The notes under the pieces: model-generated
What the model was told of the DNA's origin: nothing
Database searches by the model: none
Seen by the model: only the letters and a program-made list of their open reading frames with translations
Translations under genes and position numbers: made by a program
IMG/VR virus record: IMGVR_UViG_3300017785_009800
Coordinates: 1-27,895 of that record
Direction: 5' to 3' (one strand)
DNA length: 27,895 bases
Origin: a virus
Taxonomy: Duplodnaviria; Caudoviricetes
Shown: in pieces, positions 9,954 to 27,588 of the stretch
Layout: the number at the start of each line of letters is the position of its first letter
Numbering within the stretch: the stretch's first letter is position 1

Positions 9954-10499
9954 TTACTGCTTCATAATGTAACACAAAGAGTAATAAGGAGGCATGTTAG
10001 CATTGGTACCTGACTGGCCAGCTGCAGCTATAGATATCCCAGTAGAGCTGCTTCTTCCATACCATTCTGATCGATCTTTAGAATTCTGAGAAAACCATTG
10101 GTATAGATTAACCACTGGATCTCCAGATCTATATCCACCAGTCCAGAAATTAGTTCCATGACTATGACCCGGGTCAGTCACTGCATGGGTATGACTCACC
10201 ACCACAGCATCCTTGCTTCCTCCTGTTGTTCCTACTGCTGGTGCAGATGTGCCTGCACCTACAACAAACCTATCCACCAGATTGGGTGTACCATTGGCGC
10301 CATTGCACAACAACCAACCGGAGGGTATAGCGTTTGCAGCACCAGACCATAATATGATACCGCCAGAAGGTATGCTCGAAGCAAGAGAAACGACTTGTGT
10401 AACTGATGCACTGTAAGTTGTACCGTTTTCAGAATAAGGAACTAATGCAGCTCCTGCGGGCTGTCTTTGCGTTAATCCAGATATAGATACGTCTGCCAT
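9954..10499 (-). CDS. short tail fibre / tail-collar domain protein (MADV family, copy 1)
   Basis: IPSGGIILWSG..IPSGWLLCNGANGTPNL.DRFVVGAG collar domain; HTH/HSH metal motifs; N.PPYY.L.YI end. Confidence 0.85.
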   Translation of the reverse strand: MADVSISGLTQRQPAGAALVPYSENGTTYSASVTQVVSLASSIPSGGIILWSGAANAIPSGWLLCNGANGTPNLVDRFVVGAGTSAPAVGTTGGSKDAVVVSHTHAVTDPGHSHGTNFWTGGYRSGDPVVNLYQWFSQNSKDRSEWYGRSSSTGISIAAAGQSGTNANMPPYYSLCYIMKQ

Positions 10500-10504
10500 A
10501 TTAA

Positions 10505-10512
10505 TATTTATA
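10505..10512 (-). promoter_or_regulatory. T4-type late promoter TATAAATA
   Basis: Exact TATAAATA 5 nt before ATG(10499); TAAATA-N5-ATG recurs 14 times in the window. Confidence 0.75.
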
Positions 10513-10545
10513 AAAAAAGAGCGTATATATTGCTATATACGCTCT
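10512..10545 (-). terminator. intrinsic terminator
   Basis: AGAGCGTATATA-GCAA-TATATACGCTCT followed by a U-tract. Confidence 0.85.
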
Positions 10546-10912
10546 AATCTCGCGTCACGGTTTACGCAAAAGAAACTAGCAATCTGCCAAGTCAACTACA
10601 TCGTATTCGAATTTAAATGGCTATAACTATCTAGCCTAGTTAAATGTAATCAGCCTACGTACTGTGCTATGTTGTTACATCATAGCGAAGCCTTAAGACT
10701 TGTAATACTAGTCAGGGATGTTTACACTGTATGATTTTCGATTTAGCAGGCTTACTTCTTATTAATTTCACTTAATAGTTGCTACTATCATACTCCCATT
10801 CATTTACAAGTATATCTACTTGTATTCGCCTGTGGGTCTCGGCGTTGGACTATTCAAGATTTACCTTCGAGGTCCCAACCTCTACTTCTTACAGATTTGC
10901 TATCAAAGAACT
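10546..10912 (-). ncRNA. candidate large structured ncRNA (~370 nt), family unknown
   Basis: No credible ORF; own promoter and terminator; 5'/3' closing stem and many internal helices. Confidence 0.65.
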
Positions 10913-10919
10913 AATAATA

Positions 10920-10947
10920 ATTATATGTACTTTTCTAAAGGAAGCAA
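10920..10947 (-). promoter_or_regulatory. sigma70-type promoter of the ncRNA candidate
   Basis: TTGCTT-N16-TATAAT, followed not by ATG but by boxA-like GTTCTTTGA. Confidence 0.7.
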
Positions 10948-10956
10948 CTAGCTTTT

Positions 10957-11031
10957 TTAAATTTTTATAAAATTAGCTATAAACCCAATAGAACAAACAC
11001 CTAACAAACCTAACGCTGTTACTAATATCAT
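10957..11031 (-). CDS. possible 24-aa membrane peptide
   Basis: Own translation MILVTALGLLGVCSIGFIANFIKI. Confidence 0.35.
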   Translation of the reverse strand: MILVTALGLLGVCSIGFIANFIKI

Positions 11032-11041
11032 GTAGTAGTTA

Positions 11042-11551
11042 TTACAGCTTGATTATATATGCAAGAGCATAATAAGGAGGTAGATTAGCATTGGAACCAG
11101 ATTGGCCAGTAGATGCTATAGTAATACCGGTAGTCCTGGCGTCTGTGAATATCATTGTAGGATTATCAAACTGCTGTTGTCCAAAGGATCTAAAGCTTCC
11201 TCCTACACCATCTGCTGCTATATTTGTTGCATGCGAATGGCCGGGGTCAGATACAGTATGTGTATGGTTTACCACAACGGCGTCAGCTGAACCCCCTGTG
11301 TTTGTAGGGTTATATGCACTGCCAGCTCCTATAATAAATCTATCTTGTAAATTGGGAGTACCATTAGCTCCATTACAAAGAGCCCATCCTGTTGGTATAG
11401 AGGCTATGGATCCCGACCACATCATAATTACTCCTGTTGGAATAATTTGATTTAATGTTGCGTTATAAGTAACGCCTCCTTCAGAATAAGGAAATACAGC
11501 AGAATTACTAGGCTGTCTATTAGTTAATGCAGATATGGTTACGTCGGCCAT
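11042..11551 (-). CDS. short tail fibre / tail-collar domain protein (MADV family, copy 2)
   Basis: Collar domain IPTGVIMMWSG...GWALCNG; HTH/HSH; NLPPYYALAYI. Confidence 0.85.
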   Translation of the reverse strand: MADVTISALTNRQPSNSAVFPYSEGGVTYNATLNQIIPTGVIMMWSGSIASIPTGWALCNGANGTPNLQDRFIIGAGSAYNPTNTGGSADAVVVNHTHTVSDPGHSHATNIAADGVGGSFRSFGQQQFDNPTMIFTDARTTGITIASTGQSGSNANLPPYYALAYIIKL

Positions 11552-11552
11552 A

Positions 11553-12116
11553 TTATGAAACCCTCATTATATATGCAAGGGCGTAGTAGGGAGGTAAGTT
11601 CTGATTGGTACCAGCTACACCTTGAGAATTGATAGTAATACCTGTAATTTTTGATGTAGTAGAAGCAGCTCTGTTGCTTCCTCCTCTTCCGGCCCCTAGG
11701 TCATCATTAGCCCCATTCCATGTACCGTTAGCTAAAACAGGAGCTACATCATGAGTATGTCCATTGTCTGTTATACCGTGACTATGACTCACCACCACAG
11801 CATCCTTAGAGCCTCCAGTTAGCGTGTTAGCACCAGTGATGTTGGTATTAGCTATACCGGAGTTATCTATGGCTGCTCCGACAATAAATTTATTTCTCAA
11901 ATCCGGCGTTCCGTTAGTTCCATTACAAAATGCCCAATTAGACGGTATTGAAGCTACAGACCCCGACCACATAATGATAGAACCTATAGGAACTATTAGA
12001 TCAGCAATTTGCGTTATTGTAAGCTTAGTAGTTGTTGAACTATTAGAATAAGGTACAACACCAGAGCGAGCAGGAGAAGTAGTAGAGTTTAGTCCAGATA
12101 TGGTTACGTCGGCCAT
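11553..12116 (-). CDS. short tail fibre / tail-collar domain protein (MADV family, copy 3)
   Basis: Collar domain VPIGSIIMWSG...WAFCNG; HSH/HTH; NLPPYYALAYI; TAAATA-N6-ATG. Confidence 0.85.
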   Translation of the reverse strand: MADVTISGLNSTTSPARSGVVPYSNSSTTTKLTITQIADLIVPIGSIIMWSGSVASIPSNWAFCNGTNGTPDLRNKFIVGAAIDNSGIANTNITGANTLTGGSKDAVVVSHSHGITDNGHTHDVAPVLANGTWNGANDDLGAGRGGSNRAASTTSKITGITINSQGVAGTNQNLPPYYALAYIMRVS

Positions 12117-12137
12117 ATCTAATATTTAATAGAAAAC

Positions 12138-12353
12138 TTATTTCTTTTTCTTCTTAGTCTTCTTTTTCTTTTTCTTCTTAGGAGCTTCTTCTTCCTCATT
12201 GAGATAGTCAAAGTTAGGAAGATCCTTCTTAAGAACATCATACTTAACATATTCTACTAGTGAAAGGGCTTTATCCTTAACTGTAAAAGTTAAGTCTTCA
12301 ACCTTCCATTTAACTGTTTCTACTGCATCTAATATTTTGTCGAATAAGCTCAT
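12138..12353 (-). CDS. hypothetical protein with poly-Lys C-terminus
   Basis: 71 aa ending EEEEAPKKKKKKKTKKKKK; TAAATA-N5-ATG. Confidence 0.75.
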   Translation of the reverse strand: MSLFDKILDAVETVKWKVEDLTFTVKDKALSLVEYVKYDVLKKDLPNFDYLNEEEEAPKKKKKKKTKKKKK

Positions 12354-12441
12354 AATAATATTTATTGTATATCGTTTAAAAATAAACAGAAAATCTATTA
12401 TTTTGACAATATTAATTTAATTAGCATCCTTAAATATCTTT

Positions 12442-12726
12442 ATGCTAAATGCTATAAAAGGTCATTTTAACAAGACTTACAACATAATATTTTGGATATT
12501 ATTTGCCCCAGCAGTATTAACTACACTATCAGGCATATATGAATTATATACAAAGTATTATGATGAGCTAACCAAACAAGATCATATGCAATTTTTCTTA
12601 AGATTCTTTTTTCCTATTTCTCTTGCGCTATATATTACAGTACTAGAGCGAAGACAGAGATTGCAAAGAGATGATCTTATTAAAAGAGGAAAAGATTATT
12701 TAAGACGAAAGCGATCGGCTAAATAG
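12442..12726 (+). CDS. two-TM membrane protein with basic tail (holin-like topology, unproven)
   Basis: Two hydrophobic helices, Arg/Lys-rich C-terminus, late-type motif. Confidence 0.65.
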   Translation: MLNAIKGHFNKTYNIIFWILFAPAVLTTLSGIYELYTKYYDELTKQDHMQFFLRFFFPISLALYITVLERRQRLQRDDLIKRGKDYLRRKRSAK

Positions 12727-12777
12727 AGCACATATAACACTACAGCAACACAAACTAAAATTGAAGATATACTCATT

Positions 12778-13047
12778 TTAATACATTTTATCGCAAAATT
12801 TAAAACATTCATCCTTGGCTTCATCTAGTGTACTATATTTACCTACTATTGCACCTGAACATGTTGCGGTGAATGTTCCTTTTATATGCTCGGTAATAAC
12901 GATATAATAGCATTTATAATCTTTGTATACCCATTGATTTTTGAGAGGATTCTCCCGCCATGTAGTTTCATCGAGCATTCTCTGACGCTTACGCATTGTA
13001 TAGTATTTAGGCTTAACCGGCTGCAGCTGATATTCGATAACGCTCAT
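12778..13047 (-). CDS. hypothetical protein
   Basis: Start MSVIEYQ overlaps the upstream stop. Confidence 0.65.
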   Translation of the reverse strand: MSVIEYQLQPVKPKYYTMRKRQRMLDETTWRENPLKNQWVYKDYKCYYIVITEHIKGTFTATCSGAIVGKYSTLDEAKDECFKFCDKMY

Positions 13048-13295
13048 TTTGAAAAAGCTTTGTTCCACATTACTTCAAAATTAACACCCACGAAACGAAA
13101 ACCGAACTCCCAAAACGTTTTGTGAAATGTTCCGTAAAATTTCGGAAATAGATGAAATCTAAAAGAGTTTAAAATATAAAATCCTAGACCATTATCGAGA
13201 ATAATTTTAAAGAACGGTCTACTAATAAAGACTCTAGGATCGTTAGCCCAATTGTTATATGCATCACTTTTATCTGGACCGAATTTAATTATCAT
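13044..13295 (-). CDS. hypothetical protein
   Basis: 83-aa ORF, coupled. Confidence 0.65.
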   Translation of the reverse strand: MIIKFGPDKSDAYNNWANDPRVFISRPFFKIILDNGLGFYILNSFRFHLFPKFYGTFHKTFWEFGFRFVGVNFEVMWNKAFSK

Positions 13296-13522
13296 AATCT
13301 GTCATACCATTCTTTTTCAAATACTATGGAATGCGTTACCTCAGCAGTTAGAAGATGTCTGGTTACAAATCCGACTTTCTTTGCAGTACTATGTGATAGT
13401 ACTGTATCGTTATCTTTCTCTGCAATTTGTGGTTCATCAAATTTCATACCCTTTAAGGTATCACCATAATGGCTCGAGAGAGCAACAGTATGACAGGCTA
13501 ACATTCTTTCTTTGCGTGTCAT
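13292..13522 (-). CDS. hypothetical protein
   Basis: 76-aa ORF, coupled. Confidence 0.65.
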   Translation of the reverse strand: MTRKERMLACHTVALSSHYGDTLKGMKFDEPQIAEKDNDTVLSHSTAKKVGFVTRHLLTAEVTHSIVFEKEWYDRL

Positions 13523-13755
13523 TAAGAGTTACAATTAGGGTTGCTGTTTATAATGTCTGGATCTTCTGGAATAGACTCTGAATTACCTCGAGTAGTATGA
13601 TTAGTGCAACCGCACTTATGCTCGCTATTGCCACACGTTTTAGTATCATTATATGTTTCATAAAACATTTCATCTAAAATATCATAACACTCATCAATAT
13701 TTACATCATGCTTTCGTAATATACTATATAATTCTATTTTAAATTGATCGCTCAT
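13522..13755 (-). CDS. hypothetical protein
   Basis: 77-aa ORF; TATATT-N6-ATG. Confidence 0.65.
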   Translation of the reverse strand: MSDQFKIELYSILRKHDVNIDECYDILDEMFYETYNDTKTCGNSEHKCGCTNHTTRGNSESIPEDPDIINSNPNCNS

Positions 13756-13786
13756 AGTATTAATATAGCTTCTTTTTTAAAGTAAA

Positions 13787-14347
13787 TCAATCCCAAAGGT
13801 TTCTATAATATATGCTAAATAACTTTAAGCCTCTTTTTTGTCTTTTTTCGCCGATTGCAAATCCCTGTTCATCTCTGGTATCTTGATACACGTCAAGATC
13901 TATCTGCCATTGAAATGCAAATATTATATCGTCAAGAACAGCTCTCCATTCATCTTCGGTGAAGGCATTTGGACCTTCATAACCCGGTTCATTTGATCCT
14001 GCATATACCTCTTCTACAGTTAATTGTTCTATGTTACCAAATCTGTCTTCTCTATGCCATTTAATACTAGTACCATGAAATTTATCTCTCATTGCTTTAA
14101 GAACTGGTACTGCTTTTCTGGCAATATACCAAGCCACATTCCATTTATCTAAATCATCATACCCTCTAAACAACCGCTGTAATGCATATTTGCAATTGTA
14201 GTAAAGACCTGAAGTTAGTTTGTAGTAATATTTCCAGAAAAATAGATAGGCAGCTTCTATATATTTATTTTTAGAAAATACAGGCTCACTATACCACTTG
14301 CCCATTATTCTTTTAATCTGAAGTTCTACTTCTTTTTCACTTTTCAT
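13787..14347 (-). CDS. hypothetical phage protein
   Basis: 186 aa; EW..VLDDIIFAF...GLKLF..YY.NLWD pattern that I recall from T4-like phage hypotheticals. Confidence 0.8.
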   Translation of the reverse strand: MKSEKEVELQIKRIMGKWYSEPVFSKNKYIEAAYLFFWKYYYKLTSGLYYNCKYALQRLFRGYDDLDKWNVAWYIARKAVPVLKAMRDKFHGTSIKWHREDRFGNIEQLTVEEVYAGSNEPGYEGPNAFTEDEWRAVLDDIIFAFQWQIDLDVYQDTRDEQGFAIGEKRQKRGLKLFSIYYRNLWD

Positions 14348-14540
14348 TTTTGGTCGGATATATTTTATTAAGAAGGAAGTACACTATTTTATATATTAGA
14401 TACACAGAGCCTGTAATAGCACCGTAAATACCAAGCATCTTTAGGTAGAGCATTGCATCTCCACAAATGCATAAGAAGCTCATTACAGCGATACCAAGCG
14501 TTGTATACATTGCAATTTCTTGTTTTTTGAATTGATTCAT
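14337..14540 (-). CDS. small membrane protein
   Basis: Two hydrophobic segments. Confidence 0.65.
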   Translation of the reverse strand: MNQFKKQEIAMYTTLGIAVMSFLCICGDAMLYLKMLGIYGAITGSVYLIYKIVYFLLNKIYPTKNEK

Positions 14541-14699
14541 TTATTTCTCCTTTGTTAGTATGAAAGACCCATTCTTTTGAGGCTTCCATTTGATGTTGTC
14601 TCCTTCAACCCAACCTACTTGGTTGAGCAATTCTTGAGGTAAAAGTACATAATATTCGTCAGAGAGCTCATTGTGCTCTACTTTTAGAGTGTATGTCAT
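14541..14699 (-). CDS. AbrB/MazE/SpoVT-like DNA-binding protein
   Basis: YVLLPQELLNQVGWVEGDNIKW; start MTYTLKV with TATAAT-N6-ATG. Confidence 0.75.
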   Translation of the reverse strand: MTYTLKVEHNELSDEYYVLLPQELLNQVGWVEGDNIKWKPQKNGSFILTKEK

Positions 14700-14706
14700 A
14701 CTCTTA

Positions 14707-15387
14707 TTATACACCCGTCCAACGATAGCTCCAGCGCACAATAGAGTTGCAAGCAGCTTGAATCGTTAAGCGAGAAAAGAATATAAAAGGGTTATAAGTT
14801 TCTTTTAAAATAGGATAGTACCATTTTGTTTTTAATTCTCTATGCTTAGCCATTACTCTATCCGTTTGCAGAACAAATTCTTTGTCATCTTGTTTACGCT
14901 TTTGTGCATCTTTTTCGGACTCTAAAGAAAATTCTAAGAGTTTAGTCGATTTGACCTTTCCATCTATTGCCTTAATCTCATAATCTAAAAACAACCTCCT
15001 ACTACCAATCTCTTCTACTGCTAACATGGTAAAGGTATTTGTAAGCTTTGTCTTTACAAATATTGGCTTTGTTTCGTTGATTAACTTAACTTTATCTTCT
15101 TTATGTTCTTTGTACTTGACCTTAAAGTATGCTCTTTCTAGCCAAGATCTATTATCTTTCCAGCTTAAGAAGGGTACGTCATAAGGTATTTTTTTTCCTG
15201 TGGGTTTTCTTTCTTCTCTAAAAATATCTCCCTTTGCATTTATCTTATAAGTCCCTAAAACGTTTTCTAAATCTTTAGTCTGAAATTCAGTAGGAAACTC
15301 TGAATTATTAGCCTTCATCAGACTGGTAACTTCTTTTGGAGCTTTAAGCTTTAACCCCTCTACTATAACTGTGTCAAACATTCCCAT
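14707..15387 (-). CDS. hypothetical phage protein (MGMFD...FQTKDL type)
   Basis: 226-aa ORF. Confidence 0.8.
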   Translation of the reverse strand: MGMFDTVIVEGLKLKAPKEVTSLMKANNSEFPTEFQTKDLENVLGTYKINAKGDIFREERKPTGKKIPYDVPFLSWKDNRSWLERAYFKVKYKEHKEDKVKLINETKPIFVKTKLTNTFTMLAVEEIGSRRLFLDYEIKAIDGKVKSTKLLEFSLESEKDAQKRKQDDKEFVLQTDRVMAKHRELKTKWYYPILKETYNPFIFFSRLTIQAACNSIVRWSYRWTGV

Positions 15388-15395
15388 ATGCTTAT

Positions 15396-15596
15396 TTAAT
15401 ATGTAGCTCCAAAAATTTCAACTGTCCTGTTATGGTACTTACTTCCATCAGGAGAGTCGAGCATATTATTATTAGTATTAGGGCCCCAGTTGATTGAGTC
15501 TTCACTCAGGCGTTGACGATAATAATCTTTTGGTGATTTATATTGCGAAGAAGCACATCCTGTCAAAAGCAAACTTAAGCAAACTAAATAACGCAT
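15396..15596 (-). CDS. putative lipoprotein
   Basis: MRYLVCLSLLLTGC lipobox; TTGCCA-N16-TATATT-N6-ATG. Confidence 0.7.
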   Translation of the reverse strand: MRYLVCLSLLLTGCASSQYKSPKDYYRQRLSEDSINWGPNTNNNMLDSPDGSKYHNRTVEIFGATY

Positions 15597-15635
15597 TATT
15601 TGAATATAAAGGAAATGAGAATTATGGCAACTACT

Positions 15636-16199
15636 TTATGTACCGAGGCGTATCATACTTAATGTAGGTGTTTTAAAAGTATTAGTACTATAAAAACTTT
15701 CACAAAGGCCTCGTAATCTTATATAATCTGTGGCTACAAGAGGTACAATTGCAGATATAGTCATTGGAACATCAACGCCATTTAAACCAATAGAAGTGTC
15801 ATTACGAGCTATGGGGACGCTAACACTTGTATTTTTTACTAACATAATACTGTTTCTATAATATGCACTAGTAGTTGAAGTAGTCAGATAGCCAGTTATT
15901 AAATACATACCCCCTAAACCCGCGGGAACAGTAAGGCGAGAATTGCTAACAGCACTATTATAGAACCCACTGGAATCAAAAATAGGAGTTGTTTGAAAAT
16001 CGCAATCTGTAATTACATTTGCAGTAATATTGGTGTTTGATACTCTATAAACACTTGCACCAATATAATTTACCGGCTGGCAAGCAGCTGTTATGCTAGA
16101 AACAAGAGTTTTGTTTGTAACAGAACTTGTCGTATAAGGTATAAAATTAGATCCGTTTGGTACACCTGTTGTTAGATCAGATATTAATACATCGGCCAT
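15636..16199 (-). CDS. fibre/adhesin with C1q/TNF-like beta head (MADV family, copy 4)
   Basis: MADVLISDL; FD..GFYN...SRLTVP..GGMYLITG...L.ATDYIRL pattern; TAAATA-N5-ATG. Confidence 0.7.
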   Translation of the reverse strand: MADVLISDLTTGVPNGSNFIPYTTSSVTNKTLVSSITAACQPVNYIGASVYRVSNTNITANVITDCDFQTTPIFDSSGFYNSAVSNSRLTVPAGLGGMYLITGYLTTSTTSAYYRNSIMLVKNTSVSVPIARNDTSIGLNGVDVPMTISAIVPLVATDYIRLRGLCESFYSTNTFKTPTLSMIRLGT

Positions 16200-16246
16200 T
16201 AAAATATTTAATAGATATACGTTGGAAAAAGTGTCTTTTTAGCTTT

Positions 16247-16864
16247 TTATAAAGATCGTTCAGGGAGCTCATTTATTTTATCTGCTAGTTGACGATGAAA
16301 CTCATAAGCTTTATTAACCTCTTCAATAAAGCTATCTACATTTGTTTCATCTAAACCGTCTTCAATCATTCTACGAATTAACTTTATTTCATTTCTAAGA
16401 TCATTAAAATCATATTTACTATTAAAGCGTATATTGCGTTTAATAATTTGACCGCCATACATATCGGCAAGCCATCGTATATATAATTCTGCTTTTTGTA
16501 AGAACTTATCTTTAAAAAGAAAGTAATTTAACCACTCTTTATTAAAAATATATTCTGGTCTATCGATATTAATACCTAAGAAACGTATATATTCGTTCAA
16601 ATCGTTATTTATTTTTCGTGATTGTAACAGATCTTTATCTACAGGGGTACTGTAAAATAAAAACATTTCGACAGCTTTATAGATAGGAAGCAAATTGTTA
16701 AGATATATAGCATATTTAAAATCTGAAAGAGAGCCATCTATCATACTTTTAATAAATGGATGTTTCTCAATAGCGTCGTGTTTTTCTTTTGTAGCTTTCT
16801 TAATTTGTTTGGAGAACTTATTTGGCCTGTAGGCCGTAATAACGGTTAGCAGATGTAGAAACAT
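16247..16864 (-). CDS. heme oxygenase (HO-1 type, biliverdin-producing)
   Basis: IKKATKEKHDAIEKHPF (proximal His), YIRWLADMYGGQII (distal helix), FIEEVNKAYEF. Confidence 0.85.
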   Translation of the reverse strand: MFLHLLTVITAYRPNKFSKQIKKATKEKHDAIEKHPFIKSMIDGSLSDFKYAIYLNNLLPIYKAVEMFLFYSTPVDKDLLQSRKINNDLNEYIRFLGINIDRPEYIFNKEWLNYFLFKDKFLQKAELYIRWLADMYGGQIIKRNIRFNSKYDFNDLRNEIKLIRRMIEDGLDETNVDSFIEEVNKAYEFHRQLADKINELPERSL

Positions 16865-16875
16865 ACTATAATTTA

Positions 16876-17112
16876 TTAAACTACATTAATAAAACTATCT
16901 GTTGCACGAGCAAAATGTTGATAATCATCATAAAAGTAACCAACGGTATCTCCAAATTTACTAGTGCCTTTATGACGAGCGAGAATTTTCCACTGCTCAG
17001 TAAACTTTGGACCATGAAAATCTAATATATCTTTTTCCGTAACATAATGTGTAGATGTCTCAACACCGAAAGATGTTTTATAGTCAATTTTTCGTCTTTT
17101 ACAGAACTTCAT
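16876..17112 (-). CDS. hypothetical protein
   Basis: Start MKFCKRR overlaps the upstream stop. Confidence 0.65.
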   Translation of the reverse strand: MKFCKRRKIDYKTSFGVETSTHYVTEKDILDFHGPKFTEQWKILARHKGTSKFGDTVGYFYDDYQHFARATDSFINVV

Positions 17113-18568: not shown

Positions 18569-18651
18569 ATAATTATTTATTCTTGAGCTTTTTAATGCCA
18601 AAGAAGCTCAATATGCTGGCAACAATGATGGTTATGACAAATGAGCACATG

Positions 18652-19425: not shown

Positions 19426-19476
19426 ATCATTAATATTTATGTGGAATCCTGTACTAAAAGCATATATATTATTTAT

Positions 19477-19782
19477 ATGAATAAACTACTCGTTACTATG
19501 GCCACAAGTGTAATGCTTGTTGGCTCTGCTCTGGCTGACAATGGTGCTGCTTCTAATACAAGCAACAATGATGTCACTGTAGAGAGCGTTTGGACATGCA
19601 TTGGTGATGTGTTACTTGTGAGACCCATTGGAGCTGCAGCCACTGTTGCCGGCTTTGGTGTGTTTGCTGTAGCATCGCCTTTTGCTGCCATGGCTGATGC
19701 CACAGAGAAAGTGTATGACACAGTTGTAACTGCTCCTGGTGAATACACATTCTGCCGCGATCTTGGCGATTTCTCCAAGTAA
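19477..19782 (+). CDS. secreted/membrane protein of bacterial type
   Basis: Signal peptide MNKLLVTMATSVMLVGSALA; GDVLLVRPIG.AATVAG...P.EYTF.R.LG. Confidence 0.75.
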   Translation: MNKLLVTMATSVMLVGSALADNGAASNTSNNDVTVESVWTCIGDVLLVRPIGAAATVAGFGVFAVASPFAAMADATEKVYDTVVTAPGEYTFCRDLGDFSK

Positions 19783-19831
19783 TCCTATTCTAGTCAAGAG
19801 TTCAATCCTTTTGGCTAGATTAAATATTTCC

Positions 19832-19990
19832 ATGACCTTTAAAGAGTATATGCGTCAACAGTTACGCAAAAAGAAAAAGAAATCACCTCTTCCTCAGGCA
19901 GATAAAACGCCTCTTGTTACCAGTGCTGACATGATTCCAACTCAATCTTTGCCTGCTGCTACAGGCGGCAACCAGCCCAGTCTCTCTTAA
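19832..19990 (+). CDS. small basic late protein
   Basis: MTFKEYMRQQLRKKKKK; TAAATA-N5-ATG fixes the start. Confidence 0.65.
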   Translation: MTFKEYMRQQLRKKKKKSPLPQADKTPLVTSADMIPTQSLPAATGGNQPSLS

Positions 19991-20034
19991 TTTTTATATT
20001 GCCAGTTTTCCAAATTCCGTTACAATAACGGATA

Positions 20035-20376
20035 ATGAAATTAAAGATTATTGCTTTAACAGGTTTGCTTGCTATTAACGCATTTGCAGAAGATATTGCA
20101 AAGCTTCGTGTGCATGGCAATTCAATGTATCCTACCTTTAAGAACGGTGACCTTCTTTACATTGATAAAGATATTCCATATGGCTCTTTACGAGAAGGTG
20201 ATATTGTTTGCTTCAACGATCCAGAATACAGTCAAGAGATTTCAACTTGTCATAGAGTTGTCTTGCAGACCTTCAAAGGGTTTATTGCAAAAGGGGATAA
20301 CAATTTCCTTTGTGATGGAAATTATATCATCCAACAAAACTATGTTGGTAAGGTAGTTAAAATTATTTCTGAATAA
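20035..20376 (+). CDS. S26/S24 family (signal peptidase I-like) peptidase
   Basis: GNSMYPT, GDIV.F, HRVV, KGDNN...D (Ser-His type); TTGCCA-N16-TACAAT upstream. Confidence 0.85.
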   Translation: MKLKIIALTGLLAINAFAEDIAKLRVHGNSMYPTFKNGDLLYIDKDIPYGSLREGDIVCFNDPEYSQEISTCHRVVLQTFKGFIAKGDNNFLCDGNYIIQQNYVGKVVKIISE

Positions 20377-20521
20377 CTGCGTCTTTGGGAAGCCAGGCTT
20401 CCAAAGTAAGATTAGCACCAATATAACCGGTTTGTGCTAACTGCTTTGTTTTAGAATCTGTTGTATAAATACCATAACCACCACACTTTAGTTTTTTTAC
20501 AATTGGTTTTTCGTCAGCCAT
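20363..20521 (-). CDS. small hypothetical protein (52 aa)
   Basis: Own translation MADEKPIVKKLKCGGYGIYTTDSKTKQLAQTGYIGANLTLEAWLPKDAVIQK; TTGCTT-N16-TAGAAT-N6-ATG. Confidence 0.65.
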   Translation of the reverse strand: MADEKPIVKKLKCGGYGIYTTDSKTKQLAQTGYIGANLTLEAWLPKDAVIQK

Positions 20522-20522
20522 A

Positions 20523-20542
20523 AACCTATTCTAGAATAGGTT
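20523..20542. promoter_or_regulatory. perfect 20-bp palindrome over a -10 element (operator candidate)
   Basis: AACCTATTCTAGAATAGGTT. Confidence 0.5.
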
Positions 20543-20556
20543 AATTAAAAAGCAAC

Positions 20557-21093
20557 TTATGCTTTGTTCTGTAGCTTATCTGCAGCCATTACCAAGATCT
20601 TAATCACGTCAGCTTTAGAGTATCTCTTGGGATGATTAATTAGCTTATCAATCAAGTCAAGAGTCTCATGATTCACATTGTAATGAGAGGAAAGTGCGGC
20701 TTGTTCTTCTGACTCTTCTTTAGCAGAAATTGCAGCTTTAATAGCAGAATCACGACGGGCAAGATATTCTTCTTCAGTCTCTTCAGACTTATGCTTTACT
20801 GCCATCTCCATGTTATCTTCATCCTTGGCTTCTTTTTTCTCTTTAACAACTGATTCTCCTTGAACAGGACCACCAAATTTTGTCTTAGCCCATTCAATTA
20901 CGCCAGCAAATTCTTCAGGCGAAAGAGCAAATTTGGTAGCGAGGTTAGCATCACTCTTAAGCATGTCGAGTATTTCAACCAACCGCTTTGAATTAGCTTG
21001 TTCTAAGCTAGCATCTGAGTATGTTCCTTCGTTAATTACCTTGAAGCGCTTGTTAACGTAATTTTCGAACATCTTAATATCATCGAGGGTCAT
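20557..21093 (-). CDS. hypothetical late protein, charged, possibly head-internal
   Basis: MTLDDIKMFENY N-terminus; E/K-rich; TAAATA-N5-ATG. Confidence 0.8.
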   Translation of the reverse strand: MTLDDIKMFENYVNKRFKVINEGTYSDASLEQANSKRLVEILDMLKSDANLATKFALSPEEFAGVIEWAKTKFGGPVQGESVVKEKKEAKDEDNMEMAVKHKSEETEEEYLARRDSAIKAAISAKEESEEQAALSSHYNVNHETLDLIDKLINHPKRYSKADVIKILVMAADKLQNKA

Positions 21094-21160
21094 ACTAATA
21101 TTTATCTTATGACTTGTTATTTTCTTTAAAAATGCATATATTAGTTGACTAAATAATTAT

Positions 21161-21466
21161 ATGAGAAATATTAATCTAAAAGTTACAAGAGCCAACATAA
21201 AGAACGGAGAACCTGTTAACCCAGGAAAATGCCCCATAGCTAATTCAATTACGGAACAGGTAAAGAATGTTTATTACGTCAGAGTTCTGCCTGAAGAGGC
21301 AGCAATTAAAGTCAAACAAGGCAATAAAATCATTACCTACAAAAGCACTCTACCAAAAGTAGCTAATACCTTTATTAGAATGTTTGATGATGGTACTAGA
21401 GTTAAGCCATTCTCTCTTAATTTAAACTTTAAAAAAATTAATAATAAAATAGCTGACTTAATTTAA
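21161..21466 (+). CDS. hypothetical phage protein
   Basis: 101 aa, CPIA motif; TAAATA-N5-ATG. Confidence 0.75.
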   Translation: MRNINLKVTRANIKNGEPVNPGKCPIANSITEQVKNVYYVRVLPEEAAIKVKQGNKIITYKSTLPKVANTFIRMFDDGTRVKPFSLNLNFKKINNKIADLI

Positions 21467-21503
21467 TACTAAAATATTACACACTTATTGAATAAATAAT
21501 TAC

Positions 21504-22166
21504 ATGGCTAATTACCAAACAGTGCTGTTGAGGCCTTCATTTCAGCTTTATACACATAATTCAAGCGCAGCAAGCGCGTTTGTAAGTTACCCTGGTATAA
21601 CAAGAGTAAGTACTGTTAACCCTGAAAACCCTGCTAGTGTTCGTTCATGGACACCTGATTTACCTGTTGACTTTCAACTCGCTTGGCTCACTTCTTTTAC
21701 TCCTGGCTCTTCTTATCAAGTTGTACTTTCCGCTAACGCTAGCGTTGTGCAAGAAGGATCATACCCAGGAATCACAGTGAGACCAATTATTGGTCCATTT
21801 GCATTCTTATCAATGCCTTCAAATTCATTACCAATTAATATTTTAACAGTAACAGTTACAAACTCAGCTGGAACAGTTCCCTTGTCTACTGTACTTGGGT
21901 TTGCCTGGACAGTAGTCATTGATAATTCACAGCCCCAATTTCCAGCATTTAATTCATGGAAACGTTATGATAGAGCAAATATAGGAACCTTTAATGAAGA
22001 AAACACTCTAACTTTTCTATACCCGGGCTCTTCTTACTATATTTCTCTTGGTAATTCAAGTAGCTTCACAATCAATATACCTCGCCGTAACAGCTACCTT
22101 ATTACCAATGATGCAAGGTTTATAACAACCAATGATGGTCGTTATATAACTGTTGGAACTGCCTAA
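21504..22166 (+). CDS. putative virion structural protein, beta-rich, with C-terminal TND repeats
   Basis: S/T/P/V-rich; ends YLITNDARFITTNDGRYITV; TAAATA-N5-ATG. Confidence 0.7.
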   Translation: MANYQTVLLRPSFQLYTHNSSAASAFVSYPGITRVSTVNPENPASVRSWTPDLPVDFQLAWLTSFTPGSSYQVVLSANASVVQEGSYPGITVRPIIGPFAFLSMPSNSLPINILTVTVTNSAGTVPLSTVLGFAWTVVIDNSQPQFPAFNSWKRYDRANIGTFNEENTLTFLYPGSSYYISLGNSSSFTINIPRRNSYLITNDARFITTNDGRYITVGTA

Positions 22167-22375
22167 ACAAACCTTAAACCAGGTCGCTCTTCTTCAGTAA
22201 ACAGTTCAAGAATTGATATCTTCTCTAACAAAAACCATTCGTGATTGATCTTAATACATTTACCAGAAGGTGAAAACTCATTTATCTTACCCTCATGTAT
22301 TACAAATTTGTTAACTGCAGTGTTGATAAAGAGAATCTTTCTATCAATCAATTCTTTGTGAGTATATTTCTTCAT
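22163..22375 (-). CDS. hypothetical protein
   Basis: 70-aa ORF. Confidence 0.65.
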   Translation of the reverse strand: MKKYTHKELIDRKILFINTAVNKFVIHEGKINEFSPSGKCIKINHEWFLLEKISILELFTEEERPGLRFV

Positions 22376-22381
22376 AAAATT

Positions 22382-22433
22382 AAAAATAGAAACCCCATGC
22401 CGAAAAGAAGAGCTAAACTCGGCATGGGGTTTC
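22382..22433 (-). terminator. intrinsic terminator-like hairpin, 15-bp stem
   Basis: GAAACCCCATGCCGA / TCGGCATGGGGTTTC then TATTTTT. Confidence 0.8.
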
Positions 22434-22478
22434 GTTGATTATATTACTGTTATCTTAGGCTCTTCTTAAGCTGTAATA

Positions 22479-22805
22479 TTAGCTCTGTTTAGACCACTTA
22501 CCGTTGATCTTGATAGCATTCTGGAGAGCGCTATCCGAGATCGCGGTAGTGACATCGGTCACACCGAGTTCCGTCCGAACGTCCTGCACGCTTTTACCAG
22601 CGCGAAGGAGCTTCAGCGCGGGGCGAGCAATATAGTTAGTCACGAAACCTTCAGGCTTCGAAGCCAAATACTTGGCGTTAGTAAGACGGGACTTGCCGGT
22701 GATAATACAAACCAAACGAGGAGTCACCTCGCGAGAGGACTTTGCGGCGTTCTCTCGGTTAGCCGGGTTCTTACGAACCGTTGGTTCTAGCAATGTGCTA
22801 TTCAT
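22479..22805 (-). CDS. hypothetical basic early protein, possibly DNA-binding
   Basis: 108 aa, visibly more GC-rich than neighbours; KLLRAGKSVQDVRTELG is HTH-like. Confidence 0.8.
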   Translation of the reverse strand: MNSTLLEPTVRKNPANRENAAKSSREVTPRLVCIITGKSRLTNAKYLASKPEGFVTNYIARPALKLLRAGKSVQDVRTELGVTDVTTAISDSALQNAIKINGKWSKQS

Positions 22806-22814
22806 GATCCATAT

Positions 22815-22842
22815 ATTATGGCTGAACTGAGGAAAGAGTCAA
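22815..22842 (-). promoter_or_regulatory. sigma70-type early promoter
   Basis: TTGACT-N16-CATAAT; shares GTTCAGCCATAATAT with the promoter at 4997-5024. Confidence 0.75.
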
Positions 22843-22876
22843 CTGTTTTGTTGCAACGGATGTAACTACTTGATGG

Positions 22877-23746
22877 CTAACTTACTGCTCCTAGTGGAGC
22901 ATTGCCAGTTGTTGTTGCCACATTACCATTTAGCGTAATGGCTTTGCCAGCTGCACCCCCTGCTCCAGGGTATGAACGCGAAAGGTCCCGATTATATGGT
23001 GGAGCTCCGCTGGTACCGTTTTGACCTAAATATCCACCATTTCCTCCAGTAGCAGTCATAGTAACATTCCTAAATCTATAGCTATATACACCTCCAGCTC
23101 CTCCATTTGAAGTAGTACCTGCATTTCCCCCTCGACAATTGTTAGTTGTGTTACCAGGTGAAGTACATACACCTGCTCCTCCTCCTGAAAAACCTGCGCC
23201 GCCGCCTCCTCCTGCAGTTACAAGAAAACCGCCTTCTAAGGGATAGAACTGACAACCACCTCCCCCGCCGCCTCCTCCCCCGCCTATAGTCCCTAAATTA
23301 TTTATTGTTATATTATAGCTCAAACTTATTGCAGACCCCCCTGGAGACCCGTTTTCAGCACCAAATTGAAATGCATAAGAATTACCTCCCCTTCCTCCTG
23401 CACCTGCAATTATAGCATTATTGGTGAGGGTGATGGAACTGCCGGCAGGCCATGTGCCTGTAACTAAAGATGCAGTGCCTGTGGAAGAGCTGCCTACGTT
23501 GCCTGTTACAGTAAAGCTTACATCAACGGGAGTCGATGAAAAGTCCCCGGTTTGTGTTTCATATAATGACCTCAAGTTAATATTATTACCACCTGTTATA
23601 GTAATAGTAGTATCAGAAGCATAAAACTTGGTCCAAATACCATCTTTGTTAATCCATCCTGATTTTACTGCTTTCCATGTGCCATCATTAACACTAAGCT
23701 TCCTTACTGTCTTCCATGTACCATTGTCATTAACTGAAAATGCCAT
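22877..23746 (-). CDS. Gly-rich tail-fibre tip adhesin, gp38-like (MAFSVND family, copy 1)
   Basis: Conserved N-module; NINL..., I.GAGG.GG, I.N.GTIGGGGGGG polyglycine pattern of T-even gp38. Confidence 0.8.
   Translation of the reverse strand: MAFSVNDNGTWKTVRKLSVNDGTWKAVKSGWINKDGIWTKFYASDTTITITGGNNINLRSLYETQTGDFSSTPVDVSFTVTGNVGSSSTGTASLVTGTWPAGSSITLTNNAIIAGAGGRGGNSYAFQFGAENGSPGGSAISLSYNITINNLGTIGGGGGGGGGGCQFYPLEGGFLVTAGGGGGAGFSGGGAGVCTSPGNTTNNCRGGNAGTTSNGGAGGVYSYRFRNVTMTATGGNGGYLGQNGTSGAPPYNRDLSRSYPGAGGAAGKAITLNGNVATTTGNAPLGAVS
23620..23746 (-). repeat. ~127-bp direct repeat encoding the adhesin N-module (other copies ~24354-24480, 25109-25235, 26050-26179, 27279-27405)
   Basis: Near-identical DNA, differences mostly at third codon positions. 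Confidence 0.85.
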
Positions 23747-23754
23747 AAGAATAT

Positions 23755-23838
23755 TTAATTGAATGTTATTGTGCCTGATGATGTGAAAGTATACACAGTT
23801 TCAGATCCAACTGTAGTGACTGAAACAGTGCCAGTTGT
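23755..23838 (-). repeat. ~84-bp direct repeat encoding the adhesin C-module (other copies ~24489-24572, 25244-25327)
   Basis: Shared GTATACACAGTTTC..CCAACTGTAGTGACTGAAAC blocks. Confidence 0.85.
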
Positions 23839-24480
23839 GGCAGCTGCTGATGTCTCTACTGGTACTTTAATTATAACTACCCCAGATGCACCTCCATTTC
23901 CATATGGAGGATATCCAGATATTCCATTGGAACTGCCTGGCGTGTTAGTACTACCTCCTCCTGCTCCCCCCCCTGCTCCAGGTGCTCCGTTGTTGGCAGT
24001 ACATCTTCTATGGTCTGGATATGGATTCTGAGTTACAGTTCCTCCTCCTCCCCCTCCACCGCCTGTAGCAATTATATTATATACTGAAATTGAACTGGAC
24101 GCACCTGGGCTTCCTGCATATCCACAAGCAAAATTTTGCCCATAATAACCACTAGCCCCGTCGGCTCCTCTATCACCCACATTAATATTTAAACTTTCAC
24201 CTGTCGGTATTATAATATTGCCTGTACTTGCACCTGCTCCACCGCCATTACCACCATTCCCAATTCCCAGATTCCCAAAACAACTTCTCCTGCAGGAACC
24301 CCCTGTGCCGCCTCCACCCCCTACTACAGTCACTTGAGCGGTAATATCAGATGCATAAAACTTGGTCCAAACACCATTCTTATTAATCCAACCCGATTTT
24401 ACTGCTTTCCATGTACCATCATTGACACTGAGTTTCTTTACTGTTTTCCAAGTACCGTTGTCATTAACTGAAAATGCCAT
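23755..24480 (-). CDS. Gly-rich adhesin (MAFSVND family, copy 2)
   Basis: Conserved N-module; VVGGGGG; C-terminal TTGTVSVTTVGSETVYTFTSSGTITFN. Confidence 0.8.
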   Translation of the reverse strand: MAFSVNDNGTWKTVKKLSVNDGTWKAVKSGWINKNGVWTKFYASDITAQVTVVGGGGGTGGSCRRSCFGNLGIGNGGNGGGAGASTGNIIIPTGESLNINVGDRGADGASGYYGQNFACGYAGSPGASSSISVYNIIATGGGGGGGGTVTQNPYPDHRRCTANNGAPGAGGGAGGGSTNTPGSSNGISGYPPYGNGGASGVVIIKVPVETSAAATTGTVSVTTVGSETVYTFTSSGTITFN

Positions 24481-24488
24481 ATGTATAC

Positions 24489-25235
24489 TTAATTAAATGT
24501 CATTGTGCCCGATGATGTGAAAGTATACACAGTTTCTGAACCAACTGTAGTGACTGAAACTGTACCTGTGGTTGTAATGCTTGTTCCTGTAGGAACAGTA
24601 AATTGAACTGCTCCTTGAGTACTTGCATTACCATAACTACCTAACGTAATGCCTGAGTTTACATCTCCTCCTGATGCAGAACCGGTTGCACCAGTAGAAC
24701 CATTACTAGTGTAAGTATAAGGTCCACCGGACCGCCCATCTCTATATTGATAACCTCCAGTACCTCCAGTACCCCCAGTACCTCCAGTGCAATTAATATT
24801 CACACCTGTTCCTGTAACAGCAGAAGATTGACCTGTGCCTCCAGTGGTTCCTATTGCACGCATACTAGTGGTACCTAAGCATTGGGTGGATTGACTTACA
24901 CCTTCTGTACCAGCACCTCCTACTGTTATGGTCAAGGTGGATCCTGATTCAAGATTTAAGGTTTTAGAACTACCGCCTCCTCTGCCTCCAGCTCCTCCGA
25001 AACCTGTTACAGATGGCAAGCAGCCAGAGAAACGATAGAGATAACTGCCATTCCCTCCAGAACCACCACCTCCTCCGATTGCAGTTACTCGAGCAGTAAC
25101 TGAACTAGAATAAAACTTGGTCCAAACACCATCCTTGTTAATCCATCCTGATTTTACAGCTTTCCATGTGCCATCATTGACACTGAGTTTCTTTACTGTT
25201 TTCCAAGTACCGCTATCATTAACTGAAAATGCCAT
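24489..25235 (-). CDS. Gly-rich adhesin (MAFSVND family, copy 3)
   Basis: Same N- and C-modules as copy 2, divergent core. Confidence 0.8.
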   Translation of the reverse strand: MAFSVNDSGTWKTVKKLSVNDGTWKAVKSGWINKDGVWTKFYSSSVTARVTAIGGGGGSGGNGSYLYRFSGCLPSVTGFGGAGGRGGGSSKTLNLESGSTLTITVGGAGTEGVSQSTQCLGTTSMRAIGTTGGTGQSSAVTGTGVNINCTGGTGGTGGTGGYQYRDGRSGGPYTYTSNGSTGATGSASGGDVNSGITLGSYGNASTQGAVQFTVPTGTSITTTGTVSVTTVGSETVYTFTSSGTMTFN

Positions 25236-25243
25236 ATGATTAT

Positions 25244-26179
25244 TTAATTGAATGTAATTGTGCCAGAGCTTGTGAAGGTATACACAGTTTCTGAACCAAC
25301 TGTAGTGACTGAAACTGTACCTGTTGTAGATGCATTAATAGTATTTGCAAATCTCAATATAACTATACCCTGGGTACCACCTCCTCCTTCTTGTCCGGTA
25401 AGGTCAAGACAATCAGTGGAATAATAAGGAGCATTTACACCTCCATTACCCCCACCTCCATAAGATCCTTTACTACCTGCATTACCCCTGGTGCATCTCT
25501 GCCCGCTACGCGCGGGGGGTTGACAAAGAACTGCACCATTTCCCCCTTCAGCATACAATACAGAAGAACCAGTTATATCGCTATATCTTCCAGATCCCCC
25601 TGTAGTACCACTCGCACTACCTCCAGCTCCCCCTCCTCCACCAGAATAGCAACTACCATCTGTTGTACCATATGTACCCCCTACACCATTACCTCCTTGA
25701 GAACCGGTTCCTGCTCCACTACCGGTACTATCACAATTACTCCAACCACCTCCACCTCCTCCTCCGCTACCACCGCTAGCAGCATTAAAACTCCTACCTC
25801 CACCGTATCCGCCCCCGTAACCTATTAAACCGTTAAATGAAGAATTGCCTCCTCCACCGCCACCAACAGTCACGTTATAAGTTACATTATAATCTAAAGT
25901 AACAGATGAATTATCTACAAAACCACCACCCCCTCCTCCTCCTCCTACTACAGAATATCTAATACAATTACCACAATTTCTACCCCCTACCCCGGTAGCA
26001 CCAGTCCCCCCGCCTCCAATTAATAATACACGGCTTGTAAATTGAGATTGATAAAATTTAGTCCAAACACCATTTTTGTTTATCCATCCTGTTTGTACGG
26101 ATTTCCACGTACCGTTATCATTAACACTAAATCTCTTTACTGTCTTCCAGGTACCGTTATCATTAACTGAAAATGCCAT
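25244..26179 (-). CDS. Gly-rich adhesin (MAFSVND family, copy 4)
   Basis: Same N- and C-modules as copy 2, divergent Cys-rich core. Confidence 0.8.
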   Translation of the reverse strand: MAFSVNDNGTWKTVKRFSVNDNGTWKSVQTGWINKNGVWTKFYQSQFTSRVLLIGGGGTGATGVGGRNCGNCIRYSVVGGGGGGGGFVDNSSVTLDYNVTYNVTVGGGGGGNSSFNGLIGYGGGYGGGRSFNAASGGSGGGGGGGWSNCDSTGSGAGTGSQGGNGVGGTYGTTDGSCYSGGGGGAGGSASGTTGGSGRYSDITGSSVLYAEGGNGAVLCQPPARSGQRCTRGNAGSKGSYGGGGNGGVNAPYYSTDCLDLTGQEGGGGTQGIVILRFANTINASTTGTVSVTTVGSETVYTFTSSGTITFN

Positions 26180-26191
26180 AAAGCATTTTCA

Positions 26192-26422
26192 TTATACCTG
26201 GTACCATATATCACCGCTAGAACCACCAGCAGGAGTACCAGTAGAAATGGTCTTTGCTCCTGATGCATTAGTTCCTATAGAAGGCTTTCCGGTTACTGAA
26301 TTCCATGCTACGGGAAGATTGGTAATAGTTGATTTGTATGTGGTTGTACCATCGGAATAAGGAACAACTCCTGTTCCCGCGGGTGTACCTGCATTTAGAT
26401 CTGAGATTGTTACGTCGGCCAT
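26192..26422 (-). CDS. mini fibre/adaptor (MADV family, copy 6)
   Basis: MADVTISDL; WNSVTGKP; ends TISTGTPAGGSSGDIWYQV; TAAATA-N7-ATG. Confidence 0.75.
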   Translation of the reverse strand: MADVTISDLNAGTPAGTGVVPYSDGTTTYKSTITNLPVAWNSVTGKPSIGTNASGAKTISTGTPAGGSSGDIWYQV

Positions 26423-26432
26423 ATAATAATAT

Positions 26433-26624
26433 TTATTCTCTTGGTAATAAACATTCTGATATTATACACATAAAATGTGCTTTTAATGCAGTTTTTTGAC
26501 ACTCTGAACAGCCTGTAGAATTTAGATTCTCTAGAGCAATTCTGTAATCATTTCTCAATACCTCGCAATCTCTGATGCTGCAATCACAAGGAATCTCTAG
26601 ATTAAAGAACTCCTCCACACTCAT
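26433..26624 (-). CDS. small Cys-rich protein
   Basis: 63 aa with CDC, CSEC and further Cys. Confidence 0.65.
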   Translation of the reverse strand: MSVEEFFNLEIPCDCSIRDCEVLRNDYRIALENLNSTGCSECQKTALKAHFMCIISECLLPRE

Positions 26625-27405: not shown

Positions 27406-27426
27406 ACCTATATTTATTAAAATATT

Positions 27427-27509: not shown

Positions 27510-27511
27510 AT

Positions 27512-27583: not shown

Positions 27584-27588
27584 AAACT

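What the first reader, a model, noticed from the sequence alone, without database searches (positions are those of the whole stretch)
9954..26422. Six dispersed fibre genes share one N-terminal 'MADVxIxxL' peptide on unrelated bodies: candidate plug-in receptor-binding system
Seen: genes at 9954, 11042, 11553, 15636, 18652 and 26192 all start MADV(T/S/L)I(S/N)xL, followed by P...(V/F/I)P(Y/F)(S/T)...T(Y/T/N). They then switch to different bodies: three tail-collar/HxH needles, one C1q-like head, one Gly-rich head and one 76-aa stub. They are scattered over 16 kb among unrelated genes, and five have their own TAAATA motif. All are too short (76-257 aa) to be full fibres and no recombinase is visible. 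Inference: the ~35-aa N-module is a common docking plug, so interchangeable heads compete for the same virion socket(s) and give multivalent or heterogeneous particles without DNA rearrangement.
Basis: partly seen in the sequence, partly recalled or inferred. Interest (0 to 1): 0.85.

Follow-up and report, generated by a model that had tools for sequence, protein, structure and literature searches.

The report
Clip-on fibre heads share one hook
An uncultured freshwater phage has six short fibre-type genes that start with the same 40-residue cap, which is predicted to clip, three copies at a time, onto a three-repeat peptide at the end of another phage protein, so the virus likely mounts many interchangeable host-binding tips on one kind of hook.

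Summary
Six genes share a ~40-aa N-terminal module on four body types. Related contigs carry 6-15 copies, two of them with a T4-like capsid gene. In unrelated phages such a C-terminal tag is followed by a module-bearing gene in 15 of 51 cases against 10 of 261 controls. A model of three stub chains plus the tag scored 0.84, best control 0.00, using the module's invariant residues, one repeat per chain. So the module is likely a trimeric cap that receives a hook, not itself the plug. A missed second tier: the 76-aa stub lies among five Trp-repeat, gp38-like adhesin genes that likely cap it. Not shown: virion location of the carrier, real binding, competition, or mixed particles. No tag was found in the two relatives richest in modules (both incomplete). 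The principle is known (KP32 docking peptide); my Pfam, PHROGs, PDB and paper searches did not find this pair. The scan noted a similar tag-cap pairing on other DNA (e1-5611347, e1-5744189).

The parts
9954..10499 (-). Module (codons 1-40) + tail-collar/HxH needle body, 181 aa
   Evidence: PHROG 1800 E 8e-25; covered by RNA-library contigs
11042..11551 (-). Module + tail-collar/HxH needle body, 169 aa; no own TAAATA, 1 nt behind 11553-12116
   Evidence: PHROG 1800 E 2e-27
11553..12116 (-). Module + tail-collar/HxH needle body, 187 aa
   Evidence: PHROG 1800 E 3e-21
15636..16199 (-). Module + C1q-like head, 187 aa
   Evidence: no Pfam/PHROG hit; E 1e-7 to iterated profile of C1q-positive relatives; 85% identical in G005
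18652..19425 (-). Module + Gly-rich head, 257 aa; absent at this site in G005, other module genes at this site in L003
26192..26422 (-). 76-aa stub: module + short stalk ending GDIWYQV; predicted adaptor between the hook and the Trp-repeat adhesins
   Evidence: conserved in relatives at 58-91%; modelled as trimer on the tag; GDIW-type ends precede Trp-repeat genes
21504..22166 (+). Tag carrier, 220 aa, two internally similar halves of unknown fold; TAAATA 11 nt upstream
   Evidence: no Pfam/PHROG hit; model pLDDT 55.5, no convincing fold match
22086..22163 (+). C-terminal three-repeat tag (period 8, xx[LI]xTxxG pattern), the predicted hook
   Evidence: conserved across carrier homologues; same pattern on unrelated virion proteins upstream of module genes; residues 11-36 of the modelled 36-mer form the interface
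22877..23746 (-). Trp-repeat N-terminus + gp38-like adhesin body, 289 aa
   Evidence: Pfam GP38 E 3e-14, residues 47-281
23755..24480 (-). Trp-repeat N-terminus + Gly-rich body, 241 aa
   Evidence: Gly_rich_2 weak, E 0.02; PHROG 25859 at residues 6-52
24489..25235 (-). Trp-repeat N-terminus + Gly-rich body, 248 aa
   Evidence: PHROG 25859 at residues 5-52
25244..26179 (-). Trp-repeat N-terminus + Gly-rich body, 311 aa; directly behind the stub
   Evidence: Gly_rich_2 E 1e-5
26626..27405 (-). Trp-repeat N-terminus + gp38-like adhesin body, 259 aa
   Evidence: Pfam GP38 E 3e-14, residues 72-258
10505..26435 (-). TAAATA motifs before five module genes (first base at 10510, 12128, 16210, 19439, 26435); resemblance to the T4 late promoter core is recalled, not from a call

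Best explanation
The six genes share a ~40-residue N-terminal cap that is predicted to form a trimer and grip the three-repeat peptide at the C-terminus of 21504-22166, one repeat per chain, so short and varied receptor-binding heads are likely mounted interchangeably on one kind of hook that likely sits on the virion. In most other phages examined this tag-cap pair occurs once, with the tag fused to a neck, sheath or baseplate protein just upstream of one fibre gene. In this clade the cap genes have multiplied and dispersed as self-promoted cassettes. The stub is inferred to be an adaptor whose C-terminal end takes any of five Trp-repeat adhesins, as T-even gp37 takes gp38. Shown: shared module, copy numbers, tag-cap gene coupling, cassette turnover. 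Predicted: the trimer-tag interface (one pair). Inferred: virion location, interchangeability of all six, the stub-adhesin joint, mixed particles.
For: Module is N-terminal: profile hits 1338 cluster representatives at E<=1e-3; of the best 150, 148 match from residue 1, none with a fused tag. Copies per contig: G001 15, G004 8, G005 7, G003 6; 96 bodies fall in 38 clusters. Of 15 loci inspected, 12 have a tag-ending frame directly upstream of the module gene and one has it two genes upstream. Independent start from the tag: next gene scores >=10 bits on the earlier-built profile A2 in 15 of 51 C-terminal tags, 5 of 43 internal tags, 10 of 261 control stops, p 2e-7 against controls. Cultured case: Erwinia phage RAY gp303 (annotated virion protein) ends in the tag, next gene gp302 (tail fibre) starts with the cap. 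Of 34 tag carriers scanned, 14 hit tail, connector or head families, 8 only unknown-function families, 12 nothing. Complex model: 0.84, best of 3 controls 0.00; the mark was reached by 116 of 157 solved complexes and 2 of 215 mismatched pairs (rough here); runs agree in at least 93% of contacts, partner pLDDT at least 78; interface is cap residues 1-7, 9, 21, 23, 25-28 in all three chains. Second joint: GDIW-type ends are followed by a Trp-repeat gene in 6 of 10 against 5 of 2656 other ORFs, including cyanophage P-HM2. All six genes and the carrier are at least partly covered by near-identical contigs from RNA libraries.
Against: No tag was found in G001 (15 modules, 139 kb, about 66% complete) or G004 (8 modules, 35%); one weak G003 match (E 0.01) did not recur with the wider profile. 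The carrier is 4 kb from the stub and on the other strand, unlike the adjacent pairs elsewhere. Its body is only 45% identical in L003 while flanking genes are 71-98%, odd for a rigid anchor; its fold and location are unresolved. Only one of six caps was modelled, with my own alignments and a job unlike the calibration. The adjacency loci are not independent (related phages recur), and 36 of 51 C-terminal tags fell below 10 bits, many being a diverged cap subfamily by eye. The modules are only 34-51% identical, which leaves room for separate specificities. No virion data exist for this phage.
Confidence: 0.6

Rival explanations
1. Caps dock on tags, but the full genome has several tags at different virion sites and each cap subtype has its own site, giving multivalent but uniform particles.
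For: Caps diverge to 34-51% identity. Elsewhere tags sit on many different virion proteins. Only fragments of the clade's genomes are held.
Against: The 139-kb G001 fragment holds the capsid gene and, by my reading, neck, sheath and baseplate genes, yet shows no tag. The predicted contact residues are the invariant ones. Cap numbers change between close relatives faster than fixed sites plausibly would.
Confidence: 0.2
2. The tag carrier is not a virion anchor in this clade: it nucleates trimer assembly as a reusable chaperone, or displays heads off the virion (decoys, host surface), and the heads attach by other means or not at all.
For: Carrier has no structural family hit or fold match and a variable body. 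One carrier gene faces 6-15 cap genes.
Against: In other phages the tag is fused to head-closure, sheath, baseplate and annotated virion proteins. The carrier has the same TAAATA motif as the cap genes and, by eye, no signal peptide or membrane segment.
Confidence: 0.12
3. The module is only a trimerisation domain, or a relic of how cassettes arise by recombination at a shared promoter and gene start, with no common partner.
For: Collar, C1q and S74-type bodies are trimeric (established knowledge) and need a trimer nucleus. The first 27 nt of the six genes are 17-25 of 27 identical.
Against: It does not explain the tag-cap gene coupling in unrelated phages, nor that invariant residues face the tag in the model while controls score 0.00.
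Confidence: 0.08

Closest known systems
Branched RBP systems of Klebsiella phages: KP32 RBP2 conserved N-terminal peptide on the T4gp10-like branching domain (PMC13352976, passages read); phiKp24 with 14 fibres (PMC9700779, passages)
   Same: A short N-terminal element docks a secondary trimeric head and accepts foreign bodies; many heads per genome.
   Different: There the receiver is a folded T4gp10-like domain on a primary fibre and the heads are depolymerases. Here the predicted partner is a 24-residue linear repeat on a non-fibre protein, and the heads are collar needles, C1q and Gly-rich domains. No sequence link was found.
T-even long tail fibre tip, gp37 trimer with monomeric gp38 adhesin (S16; PMC6851490, passages read)
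   Same: A monomer uses three pseudo-symmetric elements with Trp residues to meet a trimer; two of five window adhesins hit Pfam GP38.
   Different: gp38 docks by a three-helix bundle; the window's adhesins start with three short Trp-bearing repeats outside the Pfam match, and 22877-23746 has no PDB sequence hit. T-even phages have one adhesin per fibre; here five genes flank one 76-aa stub.
Tag-cap fibre joints noted earlier in this scan (e1-5611347, e1-5744189; unchecked AI notes)
   Same: Short C-terminal repeat peptide before a fibre gene with a matching N-terminal cap.
   Different: Those notes describe adjacent pairs. I could not see their sequences, so identity of the motif is unconfirmed. 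New here: many dispersed caps per detected tag, a controlled complex model, and a second adhesin tier.

Membership tests
KP32-type branched RBP system | Short conserved N-terminal docking element on secondary heads | tested here: met
   Module at residue 1 in 148 of the best 150 hits and on 38 body clusters; met in form only, no homology shown
KP32-type branched RBP system | Receiver is a T4gp10-like branching domain on a primary fibre | tested here: not met
   No T4 gp9/gp10 family hit in 26 window proteins or 45 relatives; predicted partner is a linear repeat; genome incomplete
KP32-type branched RBP system | Heads are beta-helical depolymerases | tested here: not met
   Of 45 bodies scanned: Collar 3, C1q 4, Gly_rich_2 8, ALK_LTK_GRD 2, S74 chaperone 2, none 26; no lyase or hydrolase hit
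KP32-type branched RBP system | Deleting the peptide abolishes virion incorporation | not testable with these tools
   Needs a cultured phage
T-even gp38 adhesin | GP38 body (PF05268) above cut-off | tested here: met
   2 of 5 Trp-repeat genes, 54 bits against cut-off 25; the other three do not hit it
T-even gp38 adhesin | N-terminal three-helix attachment bundle with three Trp | tested here: inconclusive
   Three Trp-bearing repeats present, but the Pfam match starts at residue 47 or 72 and no PDB hit; not folded
T-even gp38 adhesin | Monomer bound to the C-terminal tip of a trimeric fibre | not tested
   The single complex job went to the tag-cap pair; only gene adjacency was counted, 6 of 10 against 5 of 2656
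Tail-collar/HxH needle fibre tip | Collar domain followed by HxH needle | tested here: met
   PHROG 1800 E <= 3e-21 for three genes; Pfam Collar at or just under cut-off; HxH pairs visible
T4-like phage | gp23-type major capsid protein | tested here: inconclusive
   Met in module-rich relatives G001 and G004; the window and its closest relative G005 (29% complete) hold no capsid gene
DNA-switch host-range systems (invertase or retroelement) | Recombinase or reverse transcriptase plus repeated target sites | tested here: inconclusive

The most novel reading that the evidence does not exclude
A single decoration protein presents many identical hooks on the particle, and 15 or more trimeric heads plus a stub loaded with any of five adhesins are drawn onto them at random during assembly. 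Every virion of a clonal burst then carries its own combination of receptor-binding tips: host-range bet-hedging by protein assembly alone, built on a 24-residue hook that is portable across podo-, sipho- and myophages.
Probability: 0.3. Interest if true: 0.9.

Novelty: new variant of a known kind. Interest (0 to 1): 0.7.

Why it matters
It names a specific, small and widespread fibre-attachment pair (about 1300 stored IMG/VR stretches hold one form of the tag) that my Pfam, PHROGs, PDB and paper searches did not find. The pair can be tested with two recombinant pieces, would let fibre attachment sites be read from sequence, and could serve as a minimal display hook. The expansion in this clade makes a standing question testable: whether large phages broaden host range with uniform multivalent particles or with mixed particles from one genotype.

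Tried and rejected
Homologue search with stub residues 1-40 among longer proteins: 2 weak hits of 33 candidates, too insensitive. Module and tag profiles against PDB sequences: only chance hits, E >= 1.3. Module against PHROGs: no family matched more than 1 of 52 members. Idea that the carrier is a two-lobed Hoc-like capsid binder as in Bas63 (PMC12609058, passages): unsupported; single-sequence model pLDDT 32, alignment model 55.5, no PDB match at E<=0.001, one BFVD match at E 9e-4 with TM 0.18, atlas best 0.80; the wide VIA search never ran. Atlas for the stub gave Phage_tail_C (0.94, 158 shared features) and Mtd_N (0.90) clusters: leads only, not followed. Carrier search in viral and metagenome contigs found only the same few clade loci. 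G002's single module match (E 9e-4, 12 positions) was treated as spurious. The regex count 29 of 51 against 3 of 261 was written, so I rely on the profile count. Motif words in paper search returned only unrelated text. Passages of PMC11445458 and bioRxiv 10.64898/2026.02.16.706137 held nothing on this pair. A T4 gp7-gp9/gp10 precedent (lead from e1-9784897) was not verified: one search listed two papers, neither read. RNA depth was not used to rank genes; uncovered bins are not taken as silence. Strain-level gain or loss from DNA reads remains untested.
Full report
Observation. The window is a 27.9-kb virus record. All six genes are present as described, 76-257 aa, minus strand. Their starts align with nine invariant columns and 34-51% identity to the stub. 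TAAATA precedes five of six by 11-14 nt. It also precedes 10 of 43 other window ORFs; pooled over five contigs the figures are 27 of 39 module genes and 113 of 461 others. That it resembles the T4 late promoter core is recalled. Three bodies are collar/needle tips related to one another, one is C1q-like on modest evidence, one Gly-rich, one a stub.

Spread of the module. A degenerate DNA search found 89 stretches in viral contigs. An iterated profile over the 101 loci then held gave 123 distinct proteins; that search was anchored on ATG, so N-terminal position there is biased. The unbiased check is the profile search of 1.84 billion representatives: 1338 hits at E<=1e-3, and of the best 150 (all I could see) 148 match from residue 1, none with a fused tag. 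Whole-record searches gave 15 matches in G001 (139 kb, about 66% complete), 8 in G004, 7 in G005 and 6 in G003; one match each in G003 and G004 is partial. G001 and G004 encode a gp23-type capsid protein; G003 and G005 fragments do not. Of 108 untruncated proteins I set aside 11 of a single-copy small-phage type and one under 60 aa; the remaining 96 bodies form 38 clusters, median protein length 210 aa. Of 53 cluster representatives I scanned 45: 19 hit Collar, C1q, Gly-rich or S74 families, 26 nothing. A complete 170-kb record, G006, has one match, so the expansion is not general.

Turnover. In G005, where most neighbours are over 80% identical, the 18652 gene is absent, the collar cluster has two genes instead of three and three other module genes lie elsewhere. 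L003 has four different module genes around the 18652 site; L086 has one where the window has none. These behave as self-promoted cassettes.

The partner. I inspected 15 loci, mostly single-copy. In 12 the frame directly upstream ends in a three-repeat peptide like the C-terminus of 21504-22166; in one it is two genes upstream; two have none. Several of these loci are close kin. I then started from the tag: a DNA pattern for a related repeat (partly recalled) gave 120 loci, with about 1300 estimated in the collection. After dropping open-ended, short-flank and duplicate rows, the next gene scored >=10 bits on profile A2, built beforehand, in 15 of 51 C-terminal tags, 5 of 43 internal tags and 10 of 261 control stops (p 2e-7 against controls, 0.04 against internal). 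The control hits are themselves module genes in tag loci. The loci are not independent, so the p values overstate. Erwinia phage RAY shows the pair in a cultured phage. Its orthologue gp308 of Deimos-Minion was detected by mass spectrometry of crude lysate, not purified virions (PMC6690015, passages with part of Table 3). I scanned 34 carriers (6 hand-picked, 28 of the 48): 14 hit head-closure, sheath, baseplate, tail or virion families, 8 only unknown-function families, 12 nothing.

Complex model. Three stub chains with the carrier's last 36 residues scored 0.84, best of three controls 0.00. The mark was reached by 116 of 157 solved complexes and 2 of 215 mismatched pairs; these counts hold only roughly because I supplied the alignments and the job had copies. 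Runs agree in at least 93% of contacts; partner pLDDT at least 78. The interface is cap residues 1-7, 9, 21, 23 and 25-28 in each chain, which includes eight of the nine invariant columns, and tag residues 15-17, 23-25 and 31 each pair with a different chain. This supports binding; it does not show it. No like complex was found in the PDB by sequence, but fold-level memory cannot be excluded. The hypothesis was noted before the model and before the look-up of earlier findings.

Second tier. Five genes around the stub share a ~42-aa start of three Trp-bearing repeats; two hit Pfam GP38. Among all loci, ORFs ending in a GDIW-type motif are followed by such a gene in 6 of 10 cases by regex (two more by eye), against 5 of 2656 other ORFs, all five being adhesin after adhesin. 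The ten were found through likeness to the stub; their downstream genes were not selected. P-HM2 has the same arrangement. The joint was not modelled.

Expression. Contigs from four metatranscriptome runs cover at least part of each of the six genes and the carrier with 0-3 differences. Contigs give no strand or level, and DNA may be present in RNA libraries.

What speaks against. No tag was found in G001 or G004; a weak G003 match did not recur. The carrier is not adjacent to a cap gene, its body is 45% identical in L003 amid genes at 71-98%, and neither its fold nor its place is known. One of six caps was modelled. Competition and mixed particles are inferred from gene counts in incomplete genomes.

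Comparison. It works like the KP32 conserved peptide and branching domain, shown by deletion and fusion (PMC13352976, passages), and like the 14-fibre phiKp24 system (PMC9700779, passages). It is not a member: receiver and head types differ. The trimer-monomer pseudo-symmetry recalls gp37-gp38 (PMC6851490, passages). Eight paper searches showed no description of this tag-cap pair. Most subscription journals are missing from that library, I opened no supplements, and bioRxiv supplements are closed, so prior description is not excluded. PMC6872550 was seen as a listing only. Earlier scan notes describe similar pairings on other genomes; they are unchecked and not counted as support.

Verdict. 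Real feature; new variant of a known kind. Docking of the cap on the tag about 0.8; the full reading with a virion-borne shared hook 0.6; random mixed particles 0.3. Interest 0.7.

Noticed in passing
window 10510-10960 (minus strand), between the collar genes at 9954 and 11042: Candidate abundant non-coding RNA of about 340-400 nt. Covered in 4 of 4 metatranscriptome runs by contigs of word depth about 600-5400, with 'goes back' joints in two runs. It is 98% identical in G005 and 75-77% in two other phages, always between module genes. It has sigma70-like boxes upstream, a terminator-like hairpin downstream and complementary ends (by eye). No Rfam family above gathering; folding z only -1.4.
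   Followed up: partly
window 17109-17867 and 17864-18601: A pilin-like N-methylation protein (Pfam N_methyl) beside a gene ending in a PEP-CTERM-like segment (recalled pattern). May hint at a Verrucomicrobia or Planctomycetes host; not tested.
   Followed up: no
window 19477-19782 (+): Small protein with a signal-peptide-like start, 89-98% identical in relatives; a contig at word depth about 110 covers it in one RNA run and its bin is at 77-150 in all four.
   Followed up: no
window 21504-22166 versus L003:8394-9068: Carrier body is 45% identical while its tag and flanking genes are far more conserved; suggests exchange or diversifying selection on the carrier itself.
   Followed up: partly
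L132, L138, L189 and similar loci: In podophage-type loci the tag is inserted inside the head-closure Hc3 protein (PHROG 578), and a module gene often lies about 2 kb upstream.
   Followed up: partly
window 16247-16864, 20035-20376, 5021-5500, 27426-27868: Heme oxygenase, S26/S24 peptidase-like and cytidylyltransferase-like genes and five tRNA genes.
   Followed up: no
L102:17847-20000, L108:6583-9003, L109:2162-3094 (G001): Large proteins with very long Thr-Pro repeat linkers between globular domains; possible flexible virion appendages.
   Followed up: no
L104:15121-15822 (G001): A 233-aa protein whose residues 10-45 resemble the module by eye but were not matched by the profiles.
   Followed up: no
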